Assembly: GCA_964012805.1 (NCBI GenBank)
Contig: CAXGUD010000048.1
Span: 1 to 26,008 of the forward strand
Length of the DNA: 26,008 nt
Origin: an uncultured Bacteriovoracaceae bacterium
GTDB taxonomy: Bacteria; Bdellovibrionota; Bacteriovoracia; Bacteriovoracales; Bacteriovoracaceae
Direction of reading: 5' to 3'
Positions 10,528-22,193 of the stretch are shown piece after piece. The translations under genes were made by a program, and so were the position numbers. How positions within the stretch are numbered: the stretch's first letter is position 1; every line of letters starts with the position of its first letter. A model generated the notes under the pieces. It saw nothing but the letters and a program-made list of their open reading frames with translations. It made no database searches and was not told where the DNA came from.

Positions 10528-12522
10528 ATGATGACAAACAAAATATTCCTCAATTTCTTAATGCTCTTTCTTTTTTTCTTTCAATCAAATAATTCTTTTT
10601 CATCAAGAACAAAAGTTCGCAAAATTCCTCTGGAAGACATTTTAACAGAGTTGAAAGTTTTAGAACAAAACCTACAAATCCAATACAAATCAACATACGA
10701 TAAAAAGTTCACACCTAAACCAATAGAAATTTATCAAAAAGTTATTTTAAAAGATTGCCATCTAACCCTAAAAACATACACCAAGGAAGGGCTTATTTTT
10801 AGAGATTTTTATGACCTTCTTAAAGCGCGGGCCTTTAAAAAAATAAAAATGCTTCACAAAACTTATACCATAGGATTCGGAAGATCTTCTTTAATGAAAA
10901 GAAGAATGGGCCTCCATTTTAATTCGAAAGAAAAACGGGATGCTTTTTACCCACAATTTAAAAAGCTTTCGTCTTTTTGTAGAGATAAAAGAGTAAGAAG
11001 CTTATTTAGTCAAAAAAGAAACAGGCAAAACAAAGAAGGAGAGAAGACTGTTTTTAATGGAAGAGTTCCAGTAAATCATGCAGAAACTGCAGGTCGAGTT
11101 TTCGATGATAATCAAGACGTAAAAATCGCACACCTTTCTGGGGAGATGTCTTTTCTAGAGAGGCATGATTCAATAATTAACGCTAAAAAGTCCATACTTA
11201 TTCAATCACTACTCTTCCGAGGGGACGAAGTAGGAAAACTTCTTGGTGCAAAACTCATTCAAAGGAGACAAGAAGGGCTCGATATAAGAATAATGGTGGA
11301 TGGACTTGCCAGCCAAATATTTGATAATCCAGTAGTCAGAAGTCACAAAAAAAATACTAGGATATTGCTTCATAATTTAATGGCCGCGGGAATAAGAGTT
11401 TATGGTTTTTCTTGCAATTTCTCTCCATTTAAAAATGAGATGAGGGGTGTAGACTTAGGAAAACTTACCCACAGAAATCACGACAAAATTTGGTTGGTAG
11501 ACTCAGAAATACCTGGAGAAGAAACCTCTGTAGGTATTATGGGTGGTATAAACTTTGCCGCAGAGTATTTTCGTTTAGAGGCAAGGCAAGAATTTAATTG
11601 GAGGGATCATGATGTTGCAATAAAAGGACCCATCCTAAAAGAAATGAGGGAATCATTTTTTCGATTTTTCACAGAAAAATCAATTCGCTATAGAACATCG
11701 AAATATGATAAAAAATGCTTCAACCCTTATGATCCAATCAAAGAACCAAATAAATACCATTATTTCAAAAATACAAAATCAAAACCTTATAAAGAAGCTT
11801 CTTTAAAGGATAAAATTTTAGTCAATTTATCGGAAATAAGGATTAAAAAACTTATCAAAGACCGTATATCTATTTACGATGACCCACATGACTATAAAGT
11901 GCCTTTCCCTAATTACCACAACATTCAACGCTCCAGGTATATACATGCGAGACCAGATGAGGGAGAGGACTACATTATCAAATCTTATTACCAATTAATT
12001 GAGTCGGCCAAAGAAGAAATTCTTATAGCTAACTCTTATTTTTTACCAAGTCCGCGTTTAAGATCTCTTCTTCGCAATGCAATGAGAAGAGGAGTCAATG
12101 TCACTATTTTAAGTAACCACGCTAATGCTCATAAAATGAATATGATTAACCTTGTTGGAAGAAGCTATTATTATAATCTCAAGAAAGATTTTCCAAACAA
12201 CCTAAGGGTTTTAGAATGGGTTGGAAAAAAGCCAAATGAAAAATTGCCTTCCCATACAACTATGCATTCAAAATACATGGTCATAGATGGTGAAGTTGCC
12301 ATTCTTGGTTCACATAATCTGGATTATTCCAGTCTTTATAACTCTGAAACGGCAGTAATTTTTGAGTCTGAATCAGCAGCTATGGAATTAAAAGAGTATT
12401 TTAGTAAAATGGAAAAATATAGCCTTGAACCCTCTATGGATACCCTCGCATATTATAAAAAACCTAAAGGTGGTGATTTGATTATTTTTAAAATCCTAAA
12501 GTTAATTGAACACCGATTATAA
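10528..12522 (+). CDS. Secreted phospholipase D family protein (cardiolipin-synthase-like, two HKD motifs)
   Basis: Signal-peptide-like N-terminus; RNHDKIWLVD and MHSKYMVID HxKxxxxD motifs, GGIN, WRD, YFLP, GS.NLD. Confidence 0.85.
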   Translation: MMTNKIFLNFLMLFLFFFQSNNSFSSRTKVRKIPLEDILTELKVLEQNLQIQYKSTYDKKFTPKPIEIYQKVILKDCHLTLKTYTKEGLIFRDFYDLLKARAFKKIKMLHKTYTIGFGRSSLMKRRMGLHFNSKEKRDAFYPQFKKLSSFCRDKRVRSLFSQKRNRQNKEGEKTVFNGRVPVNHAETAGRVFDDNQDVKIAHLSGEMSFLERHDSIINAKKSILIQSLLFRGDEVGKLLGAKLIQRRQEGLDIRIMVDGLASQIFDNPVVRSHKKNTRILLHNLMAAGIRVYGFSCNFSPFKNEMRGVDLGKLTHRNHDKIWLVDSEIPGEETSVGIMGGINFAAEYFRLEARQEFNWRDHDVAIKGPILKEMRESFFRFFTEKSIRYRTSKYDKKCFNPYDPIKEPNKYHYFKNTKSKPYKEASLKDKILVNLSEIRIKKLIKDRISIYDDPHDYKVPFPNYHNIQRSRYIHARPDEGEDYIIKSYYQLIESAKEEILIANSYFLPSPRLRSLLRNAMRRGVNVTILSNHANAHKMNMINLVGRSYYYNLKKDFPNNLRVLEWVGKKPNEKLPSHTTMHSKYMVIDGEVAILGSHNLDYSSLYNSETAVIFESESAAMELKEYFSKMEKYSLEPSMDTLAYYKKPKGGDLIIFKILKLIEHRL

Positions 12523-12613
12523 ATAAAGCTTAAAAGAAACAGGTTTAACAAAAAATAAAGAGGATAAAATAAGAAATTAGTATAAAATAGTTGAGAATTA
12601 GGGATTACTTTTC

Positions 12614-13249
12614 ATGAAACGATTATTTTTAAATGTATTGATAATACTTTTCTTCTCTACTTTTTTTGCTTCCATTTCATTTTCGTCAAATGGGAATACA
12701 TGGAAAAAGGTGAATGAAGAGAGCGACATCGAGGTCTTTCTAAAACCATCACCCAACAAAATGCTGGATATTATGAAAGGTGTGGGACTTGTCGATGGTT
12801 CACCAGAGAAAATTGCTTTCATTCTTCTTGACAGCACTCAAAAAAAAAATTGGGACGGTTTGCAAAAAGAAAAAGTTTTGGAACAAAAAAGTCACCTAAA
12901 CAAGGTTTTTTACCAAGCTTATGAAGTTCCATTTCCATTTAGTAACCGAGATATTGTTTTTCGCATTACCTGTGAAAAAACTCAAGATGGCTTTCTAATA
13001 AAGTACAATTCAGAAAAACATTCAAAAGCTCCCAAAACAATTGGCGAGAGAGCAACAATTCATGCAAATTACTTTCTAAAGAGGGTTAAAGGTGGCAAAA
13101 CTTTGGCCAGTGTAGAAGTTATCTTTGACCTTAAAGGAGATGTCCCGGCTTTTATATCAAATATAATTTCCAGAAAATGGCCTATAAGCGTAATAAAGCA
13201 TGTCCGTAGAAAAATAAAGCAAAGTTGGGTGAAAGAAATAAAATTCTAA
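12614..13249 (+). CDS. Secreted START-domain lipid-binding protein
   Basis: Signal peptide, W.......I.V, PFPFSNRD.V, D.KG.VPAFI.N...KWP, typical of START domains. Confidence 0.75.
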   Translation: MKRLFLNVLIILFFSTFFASISFSSNGNTWKKVNEESDIEVFLKPSPNKMLDIMKGVGLVDGSPEKIAFILLDSTQKKNWDGLQKEKVLEQKSHLNKVFYQAYEVPFPFSNRDIVFRITCEKTQDGFLIKYNSEKHSKAPKTIGERATIHANYFLKRVKGGKTLASVEVIFDLKGDVPAFISNIISRKWPISVIKHVRRKIKQSWVKEIKF

Positions 13250-13365
13250 AAGAGATAAATTTTTTTTATCAGTGTTTTTTTGACACCCAATTGATTCTAA
13301 AAAAACCTTCCAAGTTTCCTTTTGACAACACTTACTTAATTTAGGTCCTTTTTTTTGATTTAAAT

Positions 13366-13382
13366 TTGGCATAAAAATTGCT
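13366..13382 (+). promoter_or_regulatory. sigma54 (RpoN) -24/-12 promoter
   Basis: TTGGCATAAAAATTGCT matches TGGCA-N6-TTGC with exact GG-N10-GC spacing, about 45 nt upstream of the ATG at 13425 (RBS AAGGAGG). Confidence 0.75.
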
Positions 13383-13424
13383 TCAATAAAAGTCAGAAGA
13401 ACTCTTTTATCCAAGGAGGAAAAA

Positions 13425-14033
13425 ATGAATTCTAAATTTAAATTGTCTGTTTTTATCACAACCTGCTTAACTCTCTTATCCTTATCCTCTTTAGCTCAAG
13501 ACGATATTGAGCTTGGCCAACCCGGCTATGGTGGAAGTGGTTGTCCATCTGGAAGTGCGAGCGCAACCTTAAGTCCTGATAAAAAATCCCTTAGCTTAAT
13601 TTTTGACGAGTTTATAGTTGAGGCAGGAGGAGAAACACGAAGGAGAATTGCAAGAAAAAGCTGTAATTTGGCAATTCCCGTCCGTATACCCCAAGGCCTT
13701 AGTATTTCAGTTATCCAAGTAGATTACAGAGGATACAATTATTTACCAAGAGGAGGCTCAGCTAAGTTTAACGCGGAATACTTTTTTGCTGGAAGCCAAG
13801 GACCAAAATATACGAAAACCTTTAGAGGCAGCCTTGATGACGAGTATATTATTGAAAATGCTCTTCCCATTGAAGCTATGGTTTGGTCTCCATGTGGTGA
13901 AGACGTTAACCTTCGCGTAAATACAAGTATGACAGTAAGAACTAACAGTCGAAGAAGTGAAGCCCTCTCAACCGTTGATTCAGCTGACTTCAGGTCTGGA
14001 ATTATTTATCAACTTTCTTGGAGAGAATGTTAA
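13425..14033 (+). CDS. Secreted DUF4360-family protein
   Basis: Signal peptide; YGGSGCPSGS, LIFDEF, RKSCNL, VDYRG, WSPCG, C-terminal WREC. Confidence 0.85.
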   Translation: MNSKFKLSVFITTCLTLLSLSSLAQDDIELGQPGYGGSGCPSGSASATLSPDKKSLSLIFDEFIVEAGGETRRRIARKSCNLAIPVRIPQGLSISVIQVDYRGYNYLPRGGSAKFNAEYFFAGSQGPKYTKTFRGSLDDEYIIENALPIEAMVWSPCGEDVNLRVNTSMTVRTNSRRSEALSTVDSADFRSGIIYQLSWREC

Positions 14034-14078
14034 ATATAAAAATGAGCTCCAAGCATTAATTTTACAAGCATACATTTC

Positions 14079-14115
14079 AAGCCCATGGACACCTTTCCAT
14101 GGGCTTATTTTTTTT
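14079..14115 (+). terminator. Rho-independent terminator
   Basis: 11-bp stem AAGCCCATGGA / TCCATGGGCTT with 6-nt loop, followed by a T-run, downstream of the DUF4360 gene. Confidence 0.85.
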
Positions 14116-14172
14116 ATCCTGTTGAAGAAGTTTAATTTTTTTATTATAAGTCTTTATTTAAAAAGGTCATTT

Positions 14173-15360
14173 ATGAAAAAATTAAATTGGATTCCAAAAT
14201 CTTTAATTGTTTTTGCATTTATTTTCCCTTTTCTATCCTTTTCAGAGACTTTGAATAGTGGTTCCTTTGAAGTTCTTCCTTACCTTATAAAAAAAAATAA
14301 AGATCAAGTTCATTTGCGTTTTCAACAAAAAAATTCGCAAAAACTTTTCTTTAAAAATAACTCTTCAAACCTTATCGAAGTCAAAACAAAGAAAAAGGAA
14401 CTTACAACTTTATCTCCTTTCTATCAAAAATGTGGTCATCCATTAAAAATATCCCTGAGTGACGATAGAGAAAATCCTGTATATAAAAGAACACTAAAAG
14501 CTTTTCCCTGTGACCCAGAGAAGGCTTTTTCTTTTGTTTTTATAAGCGATACTCAAAAACACCATGAAAAACATAACAAAATGGCGAAACTTCTCCTAGA
14601 CCGGATAAAAGACCGTCCAATAAACTTTATTATTAATGGAGGTGATATTGTTCAGGATGGGTCTGTAGAAAAGAATTGGACAAGCTTTTTAAGTGCTTCA
14701 GTTCCCTACTCTCAGATGTTTCCGATAGTACCAATAATAGGAAATCACGATTATTGGGGGAATGTATACGATGATCCCATAGATGATGCTAACGCTGTTT
14801 TTACACCAAAACTTTTTAACAAATACTTAGGTTTAGAAGAAGACAATGAATACGGTTACTACTCTCTCGACTATCCACAATTTAAACTTATTGTACTCAA
14901 CTCAAACTTTCCAAAACTTCCGGCAAAAGTTATAAACCAACAAATGGAGTGGACAAAAAAAGAACTTCAAAAAAGTAAGGAAAAAAAACAACCGGTTATT
15001 ATATCTTTTCACCATGCACCTTTTACATCTAATATCTTTTACTATGGTCCTGTTGCCATTTCTTTTAGAAATAAATGGATTCCTCTATTTGAAGAGAGTG
15101 GCGTAGTCAAATTGATCCTAAATGGTCACTCTCATTTGTATGAGAGGAGCTTAAAAGATGGTATCATGTACGTTGTCGCTGGCCCTTTCGGTGGATCAAA
15201 AAATTGGTTACCAAAAATGAACAATCACTACAGACTGGCCATACACGCTGAAAAGGATACTTTTAGCCTTTTCAAGGTAACAAATACGACTATCGAAATG
15301 GAAACTTTCGATCAAACCAACCAATTAATTGATTCCTTTTCCATTGATCTTGAAATTTAG
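14173..15360 (+). CDS. Secreted metallophosphoesterase (purple acid phosphatase-like)
   Basis: SDTQ, GGDIV, GNHDY, FHH.P and GHSHLYER motifs; ATG at 14173 gives a signal peptide (MKKLNW...) and lies after the terminator, so it is preferred over the ORF-track start at 13957. Confidence 0.85.
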   Translation: MKKLNWIPKSLIVFAFIFPFLSFSETLNSGSFEVLPYLIKKNKDQVHLRFQQKNSQKLFFKNNSSNLIEVKTKKKELTTLSPFYQKCGHPLKISLSDDRENPVYKRTLKAFPCDPEKAFSFVFISDTQKHHEKHNKMAKLLLDRIKDRPINFIINGGDIVQDGSVEKNWTSFLSASVPYSQMFPIVPIIGNHDYWGNVYDDPIDDANAVFTPKLFNKYLGLEEDNEYGYYSLDYPQFKLIVLNSNFPKLPAKVINQQMEWTKKELQKSKEKKQPVIISFHHAPFTSNIFYYGPVAISFRNKWIPLFEESGVVKLILNGHSHLYERSLKDGIMYVVAGPFGGSKNWLPKMNNHYRLAIHAEKDTFSLFKVTNTTIEMETFDQTNQLIDSFSIDLEI

Positions 15361-15454: not shown

Positions 15455-15462
15455 GCCGAATG
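15455..15462 (+). promoter_or_regulatory. Possible sigma28 -10 element upstream of flagellin
   Basis: GCCGAATG about 110 nt upstream of the flagellin ATG; no convincing TAAA -35 at 15-nt spacing. Confidence 0.3.
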
Positions 15463-15569
15463 GTCCTTTAAGAAAAATCTAAATCGTTCTAGCAGTATGC
15501 TTTTTAAATTCTAAAAATAAGAATTTAATTTCCAGAAAGGATAAAAGATCTCTGATATGGAGGTTTTTT

Positions 15570-16562
15570 ATGGGCTTTCGAATAAATACCAATGTTCCCT
15601 CGATAGCAGCACAAAGAAGTTTAAACCAAAATACAAATCAACAAACAAGTACATTTGCCAAACTTGCTTCAGGTACCAGGATTAATAAAGCTGCAGATGA
15701 TGCTGCAGGATTAGCAATGAGTGAAAAGTTAAAGGCCAGGATTAGAGGGACAAAACAAGCAGAAAGGAATGCAAATGATGGCATTTCTCTAATTCAAACA
15801 GCTGAAGGTGCACTTAGCGAAATTTCAAACATATTGATTAGATTAAGAGAACTTTCTGTGCAAGCATCATCAGATACAATTGGTGATAACGAACGTAAAT
15901 TTTCAAATCTAGAATACCAAAACTTAAAAGAAGAAATAGAAAGGATTTCTCAGGTAACAGAGTTTAACAATAAAAAGTTACTAAATGGAGAAGGGGATAA
16001 ATACGACTTTCAAATCGGGCTTTATAATGATGATTTTGAAGATAGAATAAAATACGATGCAATGTTTTTAAATTCAACTTTATCAAGCTTATTTGGTGGA
16101 GAAGATGCAATAAAAAAACAGATAGACTTAAGAAGTCAGCTAAGAGAAATAGAATATAGTGATGATTTTGATAATGAAATCGAAAGAGTTAAAGCAAGAG
16201 AAGCACTCCAAGCAAGTTATGTAAAGAGTCTTACTGAAGGGAATAACAACCGTGTCGCTGGATTAAATGTTATCACTAAGGAATCTGCCCAGCTCAGTTT
16301 AAAAAATCTCGATTCGGCAATACAAAAAGTTTCAGGACAGAGGGCAGAATTAGGTGCCCTTCAAAATAGACTCACTTCTGTCATTAATAACCTCCAGGTT
16401 AGTCACGAAAACTTAAGCGCCACAAATTCGAGAATAAGAGATACAGATTATGCAAATGAAGCTGCTAATGGAACGAGGCTTACCATTCTTCAAAACATGG
16501 GTACTTCTGTATTAAGTCAGGCGAACTCTAATCCTCAGCTAGCTTTAAAACTTATAGGTTAA
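15570..16562 (+). CDS. fliC: Flagellin
   Basis: MGFRINTNV, KLASGTRINKAADDAAGLA, NANDGISLIQTAEGAL, RAELGALQNRL, SRIRDTDYA, VLSQAN..PQ.AL.L; GGAGG RBS. Confidence 0.96.
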   Translation: MGFRINTNVPSIAAQRSLNQNTNQQTSTFAKLASGTRINKAADDAAGLAMSEKLKARIRGTKQAERNANDGISLIQTAEGALSEISNILIRLRELSVQASSDTIGDNERKFSNLEYQNLKEEIERISQVTEFNNKKLLNGEGDKYDFQIGLYNDDFEDRIKYDAMFLNSTLSSLFGGEDAIKKQIDLRSQLREIEYSDDFDNEIERVKAREALQASYVKSLTEGNNNRVAGLNVITKESAQLSLKNLDSAIQKVSGQRAELGALQNRLTSVINNLQVSHENLSATNSRIRDTDYANEAANGTRLTILQNMGTSVLSQANSNPQLALKLIG

Positions 16563-16573
16563 TAAGGAAATAA

Positions 16574-19500
16574 ATGAGCTTATTATCCAAGATAGTAAAA
16601 AAAGAGGTTGATCTTGAGGATTACAGAAGTTCCCCTCAAGGTCAAAGCATATTTAAAAAACTTGAGTCTAAAGTAAACTTAAGAGAACAGTTTTTAAAGA
16701 TAGATCCGTCCATTGAAATAAAAAAAGTTATAGACAGTGAAAAGATTTCTTATTTTGTGATGAGGAACAAAGATTATCACTTTTTAAAATTAGGTCCTAA
16801 AGAAAAGTTCATAGTCGATTTTTTGATGGAAGGAGCTACAATTGAAGACATCTCTTATGAATTCTTTATGGAGTATTCACAATTAGCTGACCAATACATA
16901 GAGCATTTTGTAAATGTTCTTTATAAAAATAATTTTCTAATAAAACCCTATAAAAATATATATGGGGACCTTAATTTGGCCATAAGAAGAGATAGAAAGG
17001 TTTCTTTATTTTCAAAGGTAATGCTGTTCCTAAGAAGAAAAGTATTAAAAAATATGGTTTATATAAGTTCGCTTCACAAATATATAGACTCTATTTATAA
17101 AAATGGTGGTAAATTCGTTTGTTCTAAAGGAGCAACCCTATTTTTTAATTTTTCCATTCTTTTATCTTTTTACGTTTTTTCGACATCTGTGAATTTTGGA
17201 AATATAGATATATTTAGAGTCAATGGCTCTATAACACTAGGTTTAATGGTATTATTCTTAATAAGGGCCATTCATACTTCTCTTCATGAGTTAGGTCACG
17301 CACTAAGTGTTGTTCATTTTAGAAGAAAGGTCATTAAAGGTGGATTAATTTCATTTTTTGGTATTCCATCATTTTTTGTAGACACAAATGATATCTGGAT
17401 GAGACCAAAAAAAGAACGAATAATGGTTTCTTTTGCAGGTCCATACGTCAACCTCATTTTAAATGCTTTTGCTATATTTTTACTTTCAATGAATGACAAC
17501 CCAATAATAGAAGGGTTTCTCTTAAGATTTATTGCTATTGGTGCTCTTAGCGTGTTTATTAATTTCAACCCTCTACTTACATTTGATGGTTACTTCATGC
17601 TAATAGATTATATTGGTTATCCAATGTTAAGAGATAAAGCTATTTCTTTTATAAAAAATTTTTTTACAAGAAAAGGCCATAAAAAAATAAAATCGATGCC
17701 AAGAAAAGAAATGCTCCTTTTATCAACCTATGGTTTCTCCTCTATTTTTTGGCTAATATTTTTTTTAGCATTTGTCTTAAACGTAATGGGATTAAGGGCA
17801 AAAGAGCTTTTGAATGAGTTAATGAACAGCCAATCTTATTTAATAAAAGGTTTTTCTTTTATTTTTATTTCTCTTTTTGTCCTCCCAATAATTATTTCAA
17901 TTCTTGCACTTATATATTTTAAATTAAGAGATATTTTTATTGATTTAAAAGAGAGGTATTGGAATCATTCAATTCGAAATAAAAGTATTATCCTTTCATC
18001 CTTAAATTTAATAATTAATATCCTAACATTTTTTAATTTTAATAATTTAAATTTTTCTATTATTTGCTTCTTATCGGGTTTTTTATTTTTTAAAATTCAG
18101 TATTTAAAAGAAAACAGTCATTTTTTCATCTTTCACTTTATTTATATTTTCTTACTTTCTTCCGCTTTAATCTTGGCTAAATCCATGATCCCAATTAATT
18201 TGATTTTTCTTCCTTACCTATTTATTTTATTCTTATTTGTTTACAAACAGAAAGATTATCCAATTTTTTTCTCTTATTTCTTTGTTTTAACACTATCATT
18301 TAATCTCTTTTTTATTCTTGACCATGGACTTAAACCCAAATTACTTGGTGGTTTATTTTTTTCAACCATTACATTTTATTACTTATGTTCATTTTTTTTA
18401 AAAATGTTGGACTTTAATTCGAAGTTCATGAAAGATGGTCATATAAAAGCCTCTGATTCACAAAAAGTAAAAATTGTGTTCGAAAATCATCTCCATATAG
18501 TTTATAAAATGATGGAGGAAAACTATGGTAAATTTCATGCTAAAAGCTTTATAAAAAGTTTAGATAAGAAATCTCCAGAAATAAGAATTTATTTTGAACC
18601 TTTAAGTGTTAAATATAGTGAGAAACTAAAAAGTATTCATAGTCTTTCTTCCAGTTTGAAAGAAACATTCTTACTTCTTAAAGAAATAAGCCATTACTAT
18701 TTTGGGCAAACTTTTTCTCAAAAAATATTTTTAAAAATTTTGGATGAGGAAAAATGGGTTTTTAGAGAAGTTTTTGAAGAATATGTCCTATCCAGAAACA
18801 AAAAGGGAGTTTTCGATTTCTCATTATTTGTAGAGAACCATATCCAGTTCTTATCAAAATTAGATTTATTCTCCACTTTTAATGAAAAAGACCTCAAGCT
18901 AATATTAACAAATTTAAAAAGTTACCAATTTAAAAATGGAGAGACTCTTACTAAAGAAAATGAAGATGGAGACCAAATGTTTATCCTTCTTGGAGGAAAT
19001 GTTTCTGTTTACAAATTTAGTGAAATAACAAAAAAAGACGAGAAGGTAGCCATACTGGGGCCAGGTGATATATTTGGAGAGAGAACTTTATTTCTTGGAG
19101 AGCCTAGAAGTGCAACAATAATAACTGAAGGAGAAGGTAATCTTCTCATCATGGCAAAAGATGAATTTAAAAAGCTCTTAAAAGTCTCCAGTCCATTTAA
19201 GGAAAAAATCCAAAAAATGGTCGATGAAAGCTTTAAGTTTTTTGACCTTCTTAAATCGGTCCCTTTATTTAAAGACGTTTCCGAAGAAAACCTAAAATTA
19301 TTGGCACCCAAGATTAAATTTGAAACCTTTGAAGTAAATGATTTTATTTTTAAAGAAGGAAATATAGGAAATTCATTTTATATCCTTAAAGAAGGTAAAG
19401 TAGAAATATTTACTGGAACTGATGACAATCAAACAAAAAATATTTTGGCAAATCTAGGTCCGGGGGAGTTTTTTGGTGAAATCGCCTTGTTTAGAGAAAT

Positions 19501-19660
19501 AAAGAGAACTGCTTCAGTGAAAGCCCTTAAAAAAAGCATCAGCCTAAGCATTGCAAAAGAAGATTTTAAGAGCGTTTTTTCGGAAAAAAAGGCTTTAGAA
19601 AGGGTTAGTTCAAGACGATTAAAAGAAATGAATTACTCGGTTAACAAAAAGGATAATTAA
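16574..19660 (+). CDS. M50 (site-2) intramembrane metalloprotease with N-terminal PqqD/RRE-like domain, extra TM segments and two C-terminal cNMP-binding domains
   Basis: HELGH at aa 238, AGPYVN, NFNPLLTFDGY at aa 330; many hydrophobic segments; phosphate-binding cassettes FGERTLFLGEPRSAT (aa 834) and FGEIALFREIKRTAS (aa 967). Confidence 0.85.
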   Translation: MSLLSKIVKKEVDLEDYRSSPQGQSIFKKLESKVNLREQFLKIDPSIEIKKVIDSEKISYFVMRNKDYHFLKLGPKEKFIVDFLMEGATIEDISYEFFMEYSQLADQYIEHFVNVLYKNNFLIKPYKNIYGDLNLAIRRDRKVSLFSKVMLFLRRKVLKNMVYISSLHKYIDSIYKNGGKFVCSKGATLFFNFSILLSFYVFSTSVNFGNIDIFRVNGSITLGLMVLFLIRAIHTSLHELGHALSVVHFRRKVIKGGLISFFGIPSFFVDTNDIWMRPKKERIMVSFAGPYVNLILNAFAIFLLSMNDNPIIEGFLLRFIAIGALSVFINFNPLLTFDGYFMLIDYIGYPMLRDKAISFIKNFFTRKGHKKIKSMPRKEMLLLSTYGFSSIFWLIFFLAFVLNVMGLRAKELLNELMNSQSYLIKGFSFIFISLFVLPIIISILALIYFKLRDIFIDLKERYWNHSIRNKSIILSSLNLIINILTFFNFNNLNFSIICFLSGFLFFKIQYLKENSHFFIFHFIYIFLLSSALILAKSMIPINLIFLPYLFILFLFVYKQKDYPIFFSYFFVLTLSFNLFFILDHGLKPKLLGGLFFSTITFYYLCSFFLKMLDFNSKFMKDGHIKASDSQKVKIVFENHLHIVYKMMEENYGKFHAKSFIKSLDKKSPEIRIYFEPLSVKYSEKLKSIHSLSSSLKETFLLLKEISHYYFGQTFSQKIFLKILDEEKWVFREVFEEYVLSRNKKGVFDFSLFVENHIQFLSKLDLFSTFNEKDLKLILTNLKSYQFKNGETLTKENEDGDQMFILLGGNVSVYKFSEITKKDEKVAILGPGDIFGERTLFLGEPRSATIITEGEGNLLIMAKDEFKKLLKVSSPFKEKIQKMVDESFKFFDLLKSVPLFKDVSEENLKLLAPKIKFETFEVNDFIFKEGNIGNSFYILKEGKVEIFTGTDDNQTKNILANLGPGEFFGEIALFREIKRTASVKALKKSISLSIAKEDFKSVFSEKKALERVSSRRLKEMNYSVNKKDN

Positions 19661-19669
19661 GGAAAAAAA

Positions 19670-19891
19670 ATGAATTGTGTTGAATGTGATAGACCTGCTC
19701 ACGGAACATGTAGGTTTTGTGGACGGGGATTATGTAAAGACCACTTTAATTCAGCAAATTTTATTGTCACCATAAGTAACAATCAAAGTAAGAATGAAGA
19801 AGGGCCAGAAGTTTTGGTTGTTAAAAATGTGCTAAAATGTAGTCATTGTGAACCTCTTGGAGAGCTAATTAGTTTAAATAAAAAGGATTAA
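19670..19891 (+). CDS. Small Cys/His zinc-finger protein (DUF2180-like)
   Basis: CxxC-x7-CxxC-x4-CxxH ... CxxC pattern; AAGGA RBS; 9 nt after the upstream stop. Confidence 0.65.
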   Translation: MNCVECDRPAHGTCRFCGRGLCKDHFNSANFIVTISNNQSKNEEGPEVLVVKNVLKCSHCEPLGELISLNKKD

Positions 19892-19901
19892 GGAGAAAAA
19901 A

Positions 19902-20150
19902 ATGGCCATGAAGGATGTAAAACTCATTTTGGATAAAGCCCACAAAGATGATGAGTTTAGGAAACTATTATTATCTAACCCAGATGAAGCACTTAAGGAC
20001 TTTGCCTTATCAGACAGAGAAAAAGAGAAGTTTCACGGAATGGGTCAGGAGCAATTGATGGCATTTAAAAGCCAGCTAGACAAGAGGTTTTCTAAAGATG
20101 GAAGCTCCGGCAGTGACGATGACTGGTGGGTAGAGTCTGTAACAGACTGA
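19902..20150 (+). CDS. NHLP-clan (Os1348/Franean1_4349-like) RiPP precursor-like peptide
   Basis: ILDKAHKDDEFRKLLLSNPDEALKDFALSDRE matches the nitrile-hydratase-like leader pattern (A..D..FR..LL..P..AL....L...E); LDKRFSK leader-end motif; AAGGAG RBS. Confidence 0.75.
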   Translation: MAMKDVKLILDKAHKDDEFRKLLLSNPDEALKDFALSDREKEKFHGMGQEQLMAFKSQLDKRFSKDGSSGSDDDWWVESVTD

Positions 20151-20173: not shown

Positions 20174-21211
20174 TTACCAACTAAAACTAGGAATTAGATA
20201 GTAGTTTCGTTCTTCGGTTGAGTCATTCCCTTGCAATTTATATACTTCCCAACGCATGCCACCTTCTATTTTTAAACTTTTAAATTTCATTCCAAAAAGT
20301 TTAAAATTAGTAAAATTTCTACCAAGAGTAAATTCTTGGAAAGTAGTTATTTTTCTTGGCCCCCTTAAACTTTCTTTATTGTTAGTTGGAATAATAGATC
20401 TATATTCCATAATTAGGTTTGCCATTAATGAAGAATCATTTTTTGAAGCCCAATCTCTTTTCAGATAGAGTGAGAGCCCATCATAAAAGACCTCATTTTT
20501 ATTTTTTAAATAGCCTAATTCGAGCGTCCAGCTTTTTTTCGTTTCCTTAGTTCTATTGTTTCCTTTAAATTTATAACTCACATTAAACCATTTATTCGTA
20601 TACTGATCCAATTTGACCAGGCGATCAGTGGCAAAGGAGAGGACAAGACCACTTAGAGAACTCCCTGATTGGGAGGGTCTCTTCCTTTTTCCTTTCTTTT
20701 TTTTCTTTGATTTGTTAACAACCTTAGAATCAGAAACGTAATAAGGCTCTAAATTTCCAAGAAAAAAAGAAAATTGATAAGGAACTTTATACTTTGTTCC
20801 TATAATCTCTACCATGTTCCAAACTTTATCTTTATCTATGTCAAACCTACTATAAATTCCATGTTCCCTTTTTTTCAGGTAGATTCCAAGGTTGGTGAAA
20901 GGATAGTAATCAGCTTGAAAAAGAAGAAATTTTGGACTAAAACTTTTCTTAAATTGTTCATAGTAAAAGTCCAACTCCTTTTTAAAATCATATTTTTTTT
21001 CTAATGACCGTTTTTTAGGTTTAACTTTTGAAAAATTCAAACTGGCGTTAAAATAAGTTTTGCCCACACTTGCACCGACAGTATACCTTAACTTTTTACT
21101 ACCAATTTTTGAACTCCATCCTTTCCTGTATAAATAAGCATTACTATTCAAAGCAAAAAATAGAGTAAATGCTATAAATTTAAGTTTAAAAATGAAATTC
21201 ATAATTTTCAT
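20174..21211 (-). CDS. Secreted hypothetical protein, possible outer-membrane beta-barrel
   Basis: Start MKIMNF (21211, AGGAGA upstream) gives a signal peptide ending NSNA; aromatic-rich alternating strands; C-terminal YYLIPSFSW resembles a beta-signal. Confidence 0.5.
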   Translation of the reverse strand: MKIMNFIFKLKFIAFTLFFALNSNAYLYRKGWSSKIGSKKLRYTVGASVGKTYFNASLNFSKVKPKKRSLEKKYDFKKELDFYYEQFKKSFSPKFLLFQADYYPFTNLGIYLKKREHGIYSRFDIDKDKVWNMVEIIGTKYKVPYQFSFFLGNLEPYYVSDSKVVNKSKKKKKGKRKRPSQSGSSLSGLVLSFATDRLVKLDQYTNKWFNVSYKFKGNNRTKETKKSWTLELGYLKNKNEVFYDGLSLYLKRDWASKNDSSLMANLIMEYRSIIPTNNKESLRGPRKITTFQEFTLGRNFTNFKLFGMKFKSLKIEGGMRWEVYKLQGNDSTEERNYYLIPSFSW

Positions 21212-21293
21212 ATTTTTTTTATAATCTCCTTCTCTCTTTATCGTTTTTTTTATTATAATTCTAAACAAGAATTCCTAAAAAAAGGTTTTATAA

Positions 21294-22193
21294 ATGCCAA
21301 AAAAGAAATTTCTAATTCTAAATAATAAGAAGAGTGGTAAATCTCCTGAAAAAAAAGAGCAATTAACGACAAAAATAATAAGTCTTTTTGATTCAAATGA
21401 TATAGATACAGAGTTATTTGACAGTGAATACCCAAGACACATGGAAGATTTTGTTTCCAAACAATCCTTTGAAAACTTTGACGCCGTAATTGGACTGGGA
21501 GGAGATGGAACCTCCAATGAAATTATTTCTGGCATCCACAGAAGAGAAAATACTAATGTGCCTCCAGTCGGATTTATCCCCCTAGGAACTGGAAATGATT
21601 TTTTGAGAAGCTTAGGCAGTCTTAATCCTATGAACTGGGCCGATAAGATTGTAAGAGGTGAAACGAAAAAAGTTGATATAATTGAGATTAGTACAAAAGA
21701 AAAAACTTATTTTTCTCAGCTATTAACGGGTTGGGGAGTTTTTTATGATGGTGCTGTTGCTGCAGAAAAATATAGGTTTTTGGGACCCTTAAAATATACC
21801 GCAGGTGCCATAGAGTCGCTTTTAAAAAGTAAAAAAAGAAAAGCTAAAATTAAAGTTAATGATGAGGTATATGAGGATGATTTTTGGGGGGCGATGATTT
21901 GTAATACACAATTCATTGGTGGAGGTCTTCTTATGGCCAGAGATGCAAAGATTGATGATGGTATTTTTGAATTTTTTCTAGTCAAAAATGTTTCCAGAAT
22001 AAAATTAATATTTCTTTTCATACAATTGGCCCTTAAAATTCCTTTGTCCCCAAGTCTTGTTCACACTTTCAAAACAGCCAATGTAGAAATCATTCCTGAA
22101 GAATGTGAACCTATAAATATTGATGGAGACTTCATGGGTACTACACCTTTAAAGGCAAGTATTAAAACCAAATCTTATGATTTGATCTGCTAA
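21294..22193 (+). CDS. Diacylglycerol-kinase-family lipid kinase (sphingosine/ceramide kinase-like)
   Basis: N..SGK, GGDGT..E, IPLGTGNDF, VDI, NT..IGGG, A.IDDG, NIDGD. Confidence 0.88.
   Translation: MPKKKFLILNNKKSGKSPEKKEQLTTKIISLFDSNDIDTELFDSEYPRHMEDFVSKQSFENFDAVIGLGGDGTSNEIISGIHRRENTNVPPVGFIPLGTGNDFLRSLGSLNPMNWADKIVRGETKKVDIIEISTKEKTYFSQLLTGWGVFYDGAVAAEKYRFLGPLKYTAGAIESLLKSKKRKAKIKVNDEVYEDDFWGAMICNTQFIGGGLLMARDAKIDDGIFEFFLVKNVSRIKLIFLFIQLALKIPLSPSLVHTFKTANVEIIPEECEPINIDGDFMGTTPLKASIKTKSYDLIC

What the first reader, a model, noticed from the sequence alone, without database searches (positions are those of the whole stretch)
15570..20150. Flagellin coupled to a cNMP-sensing site-2 protease, Zn-finger and NHLP-peptide module: candidate undescribed peptide-processing or signalling system
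Seen: four same-strand genes separated by only 11, 9 and 10 nt, each downstream gene with a TAAGGA RBS and no visible terminator between them. They encode flagellin, an RRE-like/M50/2x cNMP protease, a 73-aa Zn finger and an 82-aa NHLP-like peptide. The last three are visibly more AT-rich in parts than the housekeeping genes. Established: NHLP leaders and RRE domains are RiPP recognition parts, M50 proteases cut substrates at the membrane, and cNMP domains gate activity. Inference: the protease binds the NHLP leader and releases the C-terminal peptide under cyclic-nucleotide control, co-expressed with a flagellin, possibly tying motility or predatory phase to peptide signalling. I recall such M50/NHLP-clan modules mainly from Chloroflexota/Actinomycetota and know of no link to flagellin.
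Basis: partly seen in the sequence, partly recalled or inferred. Interest (0 to 1): 0.88.

Follow-up and report, generated by a model that had tools for sequence, protein, structure and literature searches.

The report
Peptide-protease signalling cassette behind a flagellin
A marine bacterium of a predatory family carries a three-gene cassette, patchy among its relatives and common in unrelated bacteria, in which a membrane protease likely docks and cuts a small peptide under predicted cyclic-nucleotide control; the flagellin gene in front is a neighbour found in this genus only, likely lending its promoter rather than acting as part of the system.

Summary
The four genes, the 11/9/10-nt gaps and the TAAGGA sites are confirmed. 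The real unit is three genes: an RRE–M50–2×cNMP membrane protease with intact catalytic and nucleotide-binding motifs, a 73-aa two-zinc finger, and an Os1348/Frankia-type NHLP peptide. Finger and peptide occur in the same 4 of 238 genomes of the class, next to the protease.

The flagellin is not part of the system. It precedes the protease in 2 genomes of one genus, not in the other genus that has the cassette, and in 0 of 79 metagenome loci. Elsewhere the cassette mostly sits among signalling genes (Crp, a cyclase, FHA proteins, ECF sigma factors) and seldom among peptide-modifying enzymes. Eight peptide genes there carry Crp boxes; this locus has none.

This flagellin lacks the terminator that its closest paralogues have, so read-through from its promoter is likely, but RNA data were uninformative. 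Binding and cleavage are untested; the complex predictor was unavailable. My literature searches found no description of the module, but this scan noted it before in at least eight reports on other DNA. What is new here is only its placement behind a flagellin, and a conserved acidic Trp-Trp tail encoded twice.

The parts
15455..15462 (+). sigma-28/FliA-like -10 element (GCCGAATG); the -35-like element lies 2 nt closer than in the paralogues, so the promoter call is uncertain
   Evidence: CCGA core at -114 in both the window and L001; similar cores upstream of 6 of the 7 other flagellins. Consensus recalled.
15570..16562 (+). Flagellin, 330 aa; one of 8 paralogues and one of 3 long forms with a roughly 55-aa central insertion; no HExxH; no terminator behind it. 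Neighbour and probable promoter donor, not a core part
16563..16568 (+). TAAGGA ribosome-binding site of the protease gene
   Evidence: a 10-nt junction with AAGG is kept in L001
16574..19660 (+). RRE - M50 intramembrane zinc protease - extra membrane helices - helical linker - two cNMP-binding domains, 1028 aa
16694..16942 (+). RRE/PqqD-type domain (about residues 41-123), three strands then three helices; the most conserved part of the protein (96% to L001)
17285..17299 (+). HELGH zinc-binding/catalytic motif (H238, E239, H242 invariant in 58 of 58)
17561..17590 (+). NFNPLLTFDG motif with the third zinc ligand D338 (invariant in 58 of 58)
18827..19225 (+). cNMP-binding domain A, phosphate-binding cassette GE...R845-S-A intact
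19238..19654 (+). cNMP-binding domain B, phosphate-binding cassette GE...R978-T-A intact
19670..19891 (+). 73-aa zinc finger, C-x2-C-x7-C-x2-C-x4-C-x2-H ... C-x2-C (predicted two zincs, cross-brace) with a beta hairpin; no family above cut-off
19902..20150 (+). 82-aa Os1348/Frankia_peptide NHLP-clan protein: conserved helical leader to ...LDKRFSK (residues 1-65, to 20096), then a 17-aa acidic tail ending DDDWWVESVTD
20174..21268 (-). Convergent gene of unknown function; flanks the cassette in all 4 cassette genomes but also occurs without it, so a synteny marker, not a part

Best explanation
This is a three-gene cassette, likely acquired horizontally, in which a membrane zinc protease is predicted to dock the helical leader of the small NHLP protein through its RRE domain and cut off the tail, likely switched by cAMP/cGMP binding to its two cNMP domains; the flagellin in front is a genus-specific neighbour whose promoter probably reads through into the cassette. 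Shown: domain anatomy, intact motifs, co-occurrence of the three genes, the conserved-leader/variable-tail layout, the signalling-type neighbourhoods elsewhere, the narrow range of the flagellin link and the missing terminator. Inferred: RRE-leader binding; cleavage just after the R-x-S-K motif, releasing an unmodified 17-residue acidic Trp-Trp peptide or removing the precursor; nucleotide gating; the finger as an adaptor; co-transcription. In the wider family the leader looks like a portable docking tag, since it is also fused behind putative anti-sigma and HTH domains. Several related loci have the peptide gene behind Crp boxes; this one has none, so the flagellin promoter is the likely driver here. 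A second, unlinked peptide gene (G000:C28:19437-19685) likely encodes a substrate in trans.
For: Finger and peptide are found in the same 4 of 238 class genomes, adjacent, in the order protease-finger-peptide. Among 79 metagenome loci of protease relatives, 33 have the finger, 30 an NHLP gene and 15 both; among the 34 with at least 1 kb on both sides, 19, 18 and 12. H238, E239, H242, N330 and D338 are invariant in 58 of 58 full-length relatives, and the cNMP arginines are kept in 53 and 54 of 58. 42 of 61 N-terminal domains match PqqD at E<=0.1, best 1.3e-07; their profile hits TbiB1, PaaA, PqqD and TfuB1 weakly, E 0.018-0.34. The leader has invariant L36 and R62, while tails run from 2 to about 600 residues. 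Among 48 hand-picked neighbours: Crp/Fnr, an adenylate/guanylate cyclase, cNMP-SpoIIE, tandem FHA, a Ser/Thr kinase, ECF sigma factors beside NHLP fusions, an HTH-NHLP fusion, MinD/ParA, a hybrid His kinase with Hpt, and M16 peptidases. Crp-like boxes (8-10 of 10) lie upstream of 9 peptide genes, 8 of them convincing, and none upstream of the window's flagellin. The genome has 11 class III cyclases and 1 Crp-type HTH. Flagellin adjacency: G000 and G226 only; in G115 the upstream gene is divergent; 0 of 79 loci, 57 of them with at least 1100 nt upstream. The first 70 nt after this flagellin fold at -8.4 kcal/mol, against -19.8 to -27.6 with U-tracts for 4 of 7 paralogues, including the two closest. 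daptide MpaP is the precedent for an RRE-S2P leader peptidase (bioRxiv 10.1101/2023.03.08.531785, passages).
Against: There are no binding, cleavage or transcript data. The cNMP domains are absent in G115 (755 aa) and in complete homologues such as L029 and L073; only 41 of 79 loci show the fusion, many of the rest being truncated. 9 of 34 well-flanked loci have neither finger nor peptide nearby. The tail is hydrophilic and acidic, unlike the membrane segments that site-2 proteases usually cut (established knowledge). The window's own RRE matches no Pfam family on its own. The FliA-like promoter has a 12-nt rather than 14-nt spacer. Three of seven paralogous flagellins also lack a strong hairpin within 70 nt. 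The finger and NHLP profiles were iterated on the same loci that were then counted. The neighbours were picked by eye. A minority of loci do carry candidate modifying enzymes (rSAM/SPASM in L074, ApyD-like rSAM and 2OG-Fe in L070, asparagine synthase in L053). No donor lineage was tested.
Confidence: 0.55

Rival explanations
1. One reading: the position behind the flagellin is selected. The cassette has been rewired from Crp to FliA control, so that the swimming attack-phase cell makes protease and peptide, and a cyclic-nucleotide rise then releases a signal tied to motility or predation.
For: The 10-11 nt junction with its RBS is kept between G000 and G226, although synonymous sites are near saturation (dS 1.3-1.4). 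There is no terminator and no Crp box. FliA is reported as the attack-phase master regulator in Bdellovibrio (PMC5430801, passages). The genome has 11 cyclases.
Against: Two genomes of one genus are one event. Neighbouring housekeeping genes keep their order over the same distance. G115 has the cassette without the flagellin, and 0 of 79 other loci have one. The peptide paralogue sits behind a betaine-aldehyde dehydrogenase instead, which suggests opportunistic placement. The promoter spacer is atypical.
Confidence: 0.18
2. The peptide is not the substrate but a regulator: it occupies the RRE and inhibits or activates the protease, whose real substrate is a membrane protein encoded elsewhere, as in classical regulated intramembrane proteolysis.
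For: Several homologues have almost no tail (2-5 residues). The leader is fused to putative anti-sigma and HTH domains. The window's tail is hydrophilic. Os1348 itself is a folded dimer (PMC7726476, abstract). Some protease loci lack a peptide gene.
Against: The conserved R-x-S-K motif at the leader/tail boundary, with hypervariable tails behind it, is the layout of a precursor. The tail end WWxESV(T/S)D is conserved in both paralogues and across two genera.
Confidence: 0.15
3. A minimal RiPP/bacteriocin pathway: the protease removes the leader and the tail is exported as a weapon or pheromone, possibly modified by enzymes encoded elsewhere.
For: NHLP-clan precursor above cut-off; best NCBIfam hits for the protease domain are the daptide and epipeptide peptidases; Os1348 contributes to antibiotic activity in Pseudomonas (PMC7726476, abstract and Discussion); a few related loci carry rSAM or other enzymes.
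Against: No modifying enzyme, transporter or immunity gene lies in the locus. The genome's one YcaO looks like an OsmC-type fusion (read from its N-terminal sequence) with no precursor seen nearby, and its one SPASM protein lies among sugar-pathway-like genes. No PqqD match in the genome at E<=0.001. The tail is acidic with no Cys.
Confidence: 0.12

Closest known systems
Daptide RRE-peptidase MpaP/DapP (NCBIfam NF041824; Ren et al., bioRxiv 10.1101/2023.03.08.531785, passages read)
   Same: RRE fused N-terminally to an intramembrane site-2 protease with HExxH and NxxPxxxxDG, encoded beside a short leader-core precursor; the paper states that it removes the leader.
   Different: 99.6 bits versus a cut-off of 300. 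It has extra membrane helices and two cNMP domains. The precursor is NHLP-clan and ends in Asp, not the invariant Thr with an ELExMEAP leader. No dehydrogenase, aminotransferase, methyltransferase or ABC transporter; a zinc-finger gene is present.
Os1348 / Frankia_peptide NHLP-clan precursors (NF038399, PF14407, PDB 6lk7; PMC7726476 abstract and Discussion read)
   Same: Same three-helix LigA-like leader (profile hit to 6lk7 at E 4.5e-11).
   Different: The Os17 cluster has a gluzincin peptidase, a SagB-type dehydrogenase and efflux genes. Here there is only an M50 protease and a finger, and the tail is short and acidic.
YydH/LiaK (EpeP) epipeptide maturation protease (NF058609)
   Same: M50-type membrane protease acting on a ribosomal peptide (family name).
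   Different: 48 bits versus a cut-off of 225; no radical-SAM epimerase or ABC exporter here.
Tandem cNMP domains of PKA-R/PKG
   Same: Two consecutive CNB domains with intact phosphate-binding cassettes; top PDB hits by sequence and fold.
   Different: Attached to a membrane protease instead of a kinase; the ligand is not determined.
Flagellinolysins (NF033876; PMC5595980 and PMC7643111, search listing only)
   Same: The known link between a flagellin and a zinc protease.
   Different: There the protease is a domain inside the flagellin. Here the flagellin has no HExxH, and the protease is a separate, out-of-frame, polytopic membrane protein.

Membership tests
M50 / site-2 protease | HExxH in a membrane helix | tested here: met
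   HELGH 238-242 in helix 220-248, invariant in 58 of 58
M50 / site-2 protease | NxxPxxxxDG with the third zinc ligand | tested here: met
   NFNPLLTFDG 330-339; N330, D338 and G339 invariant
M50 / site-2 protease | PF02163 score above gathering cut-off | tested here: not met
   23.3 bits versus 27.2, E 4.6e-05; a divergent member by motifs
M50 / site-2 protease | Proteolytic activity | not testable with these tools
   needs an assay
RRE (PqqD-like) | Three strands plus three helices, with PqqD-family similarity | tested here: met
   AF2 model, pLDDT 85-96 over residues 41-120; 42 of 61 homologous domains match PF05402 at E<=0.1, the window's own copy does not; weak profile hits to TbiB1, PqqD and TfuB1
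RRE (PqqD-like) | Binds the leader of the cognate precursor | not tested
cNMP-binding domain | Phosphate-binding cassette G-E...R-(S/T/A)-A | tested here: met
   G835-E836...R845 and G968-E969...R978; PF00027 141 bits
cNMP-binding domain | Ligand identity and gating of the protease | not testable with these tools
   needs an assay; the domains are absent in G115
Os1348 NHLP clan (NF038399) | HMM score above cut-off | tested here: met
   47.6 versus 40 bits; the paralogue scores 45.3
Daptide gene cluster | NF041824 above cut-off | tested here: not met
   99.6 versus 300 bits
Daptide gene cluster | Precursor with invariant C-terminal Thr, plus dehydrogenase, aminotransferase and methyltransferase genes | tested here: not met
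   the peptide ends in Asp and no such genes flank it
RiPP biosynthetic cluster | A modifying enzyme encoded with the precursor | tested here: not met
   none in the locus; the genome's YcaO and SPASM hits lie in unrelated contexts; other enzyme classes were not searched genome-wide
Flagellinolysin | HExxH metallopeptidase domain within the flagellin | tested here: not met
   no HExxH; NF033876 28 versus 205 bits
DUF2180 / FYVE-like cross-brace finger | Family score or clear fold match | tested here: inconclusive
   PF09947 20.4 versus 22.2 bits; best Z 3.8, rmsd 3.6, 56 aligned, to a FYVE domain
FliA (sigma-28) regulon | TAAAG-N14-GCCGATAA-like promoter (consensus recalled) | tested here: inconclusive
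   -10-like GCCGAATG conserved at -114, but the spacer is 12 nt

The most novel reading that the evidence does not exclude
A RiPP recognition pair (RRE plus NHLP leader) has been co-opted as a cyclic-nucleotide-gated proteolytic signalling switch, and in this marine predatory genus it has been rewired from Crp control to the flagellin/FliA attack-phase promoter, giving an AND gate: swimming phase makes the parts, and a cAMP/cGMP rise releases an unmodified acidic Trp-Trp peptide that steers the predatory cycle.
Probability: 0.17. Interest if true: 0.8.

Novelty: new variant of a known kind. Interest (0 to 1): 0.5.

Why it matters
If the module works as inferred, it would be a site-2 protease gated directly by cAMP or cGMP, using RiPP-type leader recognition for signalling rather than natural-product synthesis. 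The leader-tagged anti-sigma-like and HTH fusions suggest a portable proteolysis tag. This copy is a compact test case: three genes, no modifying enzymes, a natural variant without cNMP domains (G115) and two peptide paralogues with differing putative cleavage sites. The flagellin link, the part that made the finding look striking, is a lineage-specific placement. It matters only if attack-phase expression is shown.

Tried and rejected
RNA evidence: no RNA holder was listed. Laying 4 of the 5 listed same-sample metatranscriptome runs gave only short pieces, mostly other organisms' flagellins, and nothing across the junction; this is no evidence either way.

Iyer et al. 2009, which defined Frankia_peptide (per PMC8939145, passages), is not held. 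I recall the Pfam text linking this family to cyclases in Chloroflexi, so part of the cNMP link may be in print there or in its supplements.

Literature searches that returned no description of the module: (judged from listings). PMC2887384, PMC2938197, PMC7159879, PMC7470986 and PMC12353581 were checked by passages only, without a match to this module; bioRxiv supplements were closed.

Flagellin-protease fusion was rejected: two in-frame stops and different frames. The finger was not found in plasmids (one distant homologue as query) or viral contigs.

The convergent downstream gene was rejected as a part: G116 and G117 have it without the cassette. Other class-level M50 hits were rejected as a different type, with a membrane-fusion-like tail and TolC-like neighbours: 6 of the 8 such hits were examined. 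Compositional evidence of recent transfer was rejected.

The upstream metallophosphoesterase as a cAMP phosphodiesterase partner is unlikely: 32 versus 225 bits and an apparent signal peptide. G227 could not test the flagellin link: its contig starts inside the protease gene, and neither the orthologous flagellin nor the upstream gene was found in that 68%-complete assembly.
Full report
Observation. The four ORFs, their lengths, the 11/9/10-nt gaps and the TAAGGA sites are as described. The host is a 4.47-Mb, 35% GC assembly. Its nearest relative found is titled Halobacteriovoraceae bacterium, is 84% identical in the protease and has the same gene order. All four genes are under purifying selection against that relative (dN/dS 0.02-0.08). 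The AT-richness holds only for the protease and mostly reflects its membrane segment; four-fold-site GC equals that of the flagellin. Gaps of 15 nt or less occur in 462 of 1896 same-strand pairs, so tight spacing alone is unremarkable.

Protease. The AF2 model (mean pLDDT 82, pTM 0.63) shows an N-terminal three-strand/three-helix domain, an M50 core, further helices, a helical linker and two cNMP domains. 42 of 61 homologous N-terminal domains match PqqD, although the window's copy does not on its own. Their profile weakly hits TbiB1, PaaA, PqqD and TfuB1, below spurious hits to designed beta-trefoils. HELGH and NFNPLLTFDG are intact, with the zinc ligands invariant in 58 of 58 full-length relatives, and both phosphate-binding cassettes keep G-E and R. 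The closest curated family is the daptide peptidase, far below cut-off. Identity to the relative is 96% in the RRE, 91% in the M50 core, 88-89% in the cNMP domains and 67% in the extra helices.

Finger and peptide. The finger has seven invariant Cys/His and an eighth nearly invariant in 34 sequences, 891 relatives among 948 candidates, and only a weak FYVE-like fold match (Z 3.8). The peptide passes NF038399 and its family profile hits the Os1348 structure 6lk7. Across loci the leader is conserved up to L-D-x-R-x-S-K and the tails vary from 2 to about 600 residues. Within the class the tail end WWxESV(T/S)D is conserved. A second peptide gene lies behind a betaine-aldehyde dehydrogenase on contig C28, and likewise in G226 and G227.

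Co-occurrence. In the class, finger and peptide are each found in 4 of 238 genomes, the same four, adjacent to the protease. In an even sample of the phylum the finger was found in 1 of 401 genomes, the window's own; G242 has a cNMP-first protease with a leader-only peptide. The metagenome scan kept the best 80 of 542 confirmed stretches. I dropped L028, which is identical to the window. Of the remaining 79 loci (51 clusters at 70%), 33 have the finger, 30 an NHLP gene, 15 both and 48 either. Of 34 loci with at least 1 kb on each side, 25 have either and 9 neither. The profiles were iterated on these loci, and a subset was confirmed with Pfam and NCBIfam. Named relatives are Anaerolineae, Thermoflexales, other Chloroflexi, Edwardsbacteria and Ca. 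Ancaeobacter, and Atlas clusters are mostly Chloroflexota. In a FastTree tree of 200 sequences (from 261; 217 passed a length filter, then thinned at 92%), rooted on six membrane-fusion-type proteases, the window, G115, P0003 and P0052 form a clade (0.987) nested among cNMP-bearing proteins. This suggests one acquisition and a later loss of the cNMP domains in G115. I did not test a donor.

Flagellin. It is one of eight paralogues. It precedes the cassette in G000 and G226 only. In G115 the cassette has the same downstream neighbour but a divergent upstream gene, and that genome's five flagellin matches lie on other contigs. None of the 79 metagenome loci has a flagellin, 57 of them with at least 1100 nt upstream. 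G227 is uninformative. The junction is therefore a single lineage-specific event. It probably has a transcriptional consequence. This flagellin has no hairpin after its stop (-8.4 kcal/mol over 70 nt), whereas four of seven paralogues, including the two closest, have strong hairpins with U-tracts. The junction length and RBS are kept in the relative. A FliA-like -10 element is conserved at -114 but with a 12-nt spacer. FliA drives flagellin promoters and most attack-phase genes in Bdellovibrio (PMC5430801, passages). RNA runs were uninformative.

Signalling or RiPP. Among 48 neighbours that I picked by eye, signalling genes dominate: Crp/Fnr, a class III cyclase, cNMP-SpoIIE, tandem FHA, a Ser/Thr kinase, His kinase/Hpt/receiver, MinD/ParA and M16 peptidases. 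A Crp-sized cNMP gene lies upstream in 8 of 59 loci with more than 1 kb upstream. In L052 and L073 an ECF sigma gene is followed by a protein whose C-terminal half is the NHLP leader; I read the N-terminal half as anti-sigma-like from its position, not from a family hit. In L076 the leader is fused behind an HTH domain. Following a lead from an earlier scan note, I found Crp-like boxes upstream of nine peptide genes, often in tandem, and none upstream of the window's flagellin, the L001 flagellin or the C28 dehydrogenase; G115 has one 7-of-10 match. A few loci carry candidate modifying enzymes (L053, L070, L074). The window has none, and the genome's single YcaO and SPASM hits are in unrelated contexts. 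It does have 11 class III cyclases.

Mechanism. Most likely (0.55) the RRE captures the leader, the M50 site cuts near the R-x-S-K boundary, cyclic nucleotide tunes the activity, the finger is an accessory factor, and the flagellin merely supplies transcription. All four mechanistic steps are inferred. Rivals: selected attack-phase coupling (0.18), the peptide as regulator with another substrate (0.15), a minimal RiPP or bacteriocin (0.12). Against gating as a defining feature, G115 and several complete homologues lack the cNMP domains.

Known and novel. It works like the daptide RRE-peptidase but fails membership of the daptide, Os1348-cluster, epipeptide and flagellinolysin systems. Seven literature searches gave no description of the module. 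Iyer et al. 2009 could not be read and may already link this peptide family to cyclases (recalled). This scan has reported the same or a closely related module eight times on other DNA; those are unchecked AI notes and not independent support. Verdict: a real, uncharacterised variant of a known kind, here in an unusual host and position. The flagellin coupling is local and unproven. Interest 0.5.

Noticed in passing
G000:C28:19437-19685 (L027); L025, L026: Second NHLP gene (57% identical) 30 nt behind a betaine-aldehyde dehydrogenase, conserved in three genomes of the genus; same WWxESVTD tail but RYSL/RFSM in place of RFSK.
   Followed up: partly
L013:8065-10819 (G115:C77): Orthologous cassette whose protease ends at 755 aa without either cNMP domain, its stop overlapping the finger's start; a natural control for gating.
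   Followed up: partly
L052:3868-4881, L073:6728-7949, L075:2117-2545, L076:7407-7886, L085:888-1328: NHLP leader fused as a C-terminal domain to putative anti-sigma proteins (behind ECF sigma genes in L052 and L073) or to an HTH domain, near the protease and often an M16 peptidase.
   Followed up: partly
window 15570-16562; G000:C4:25750-26748; G000:C13:5386-6396: Three of eight flagellins share a charged central insertion of about 55 aa that the 276-282-aa paralogues lack; above E 1e-100 only this genus matched among 21 genomes.
   Followed up: partly
window 15520-15569: The flagellin 5' region has GGA motifs like those of several paralogues, resembling CsrA-binding sites (recalled); CsrA could also affect read-through.
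   Followed up: no
window 20174-21268: Convergent gene without a Pfam or NCBIfam match, with an apparent signal peptide and a C-terminal Trp, suggesting an outer-membrane protein; found in 6 of 238 class genomes.
   Followed up: partly
L015-L020: A different RRE-M50 type (about 700-740 aa, membrane-fusion-like tail) in several Bacteriovoracia, with TolC-like and HlyD-like genes and a large acidic repeat protein; possibly a protease-coupled export system.
   Followed up: no
L109:1429-2993 (G242:C6): Another Bdellovibrionota arrangement: a leader-only 66-aa peptide followed by a cNMP-RRE-M50 protein with the cNMP domain first.
   Followed up: partly
L104:4835-5886: Four tandem NHLP genes with 5-7-residue variable tails directly behind a protease without cNMP domains.
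   Followed up: no
window 10528-15360 and 21294-22193: Upstream run of apparently secreted proteins (phospholipase-D-like, START, DUF4360, metallophosphoesterase) and a downstream DAGK/YegS lipid kinase; the upstream order is conserved in L001.
   Followed up: no
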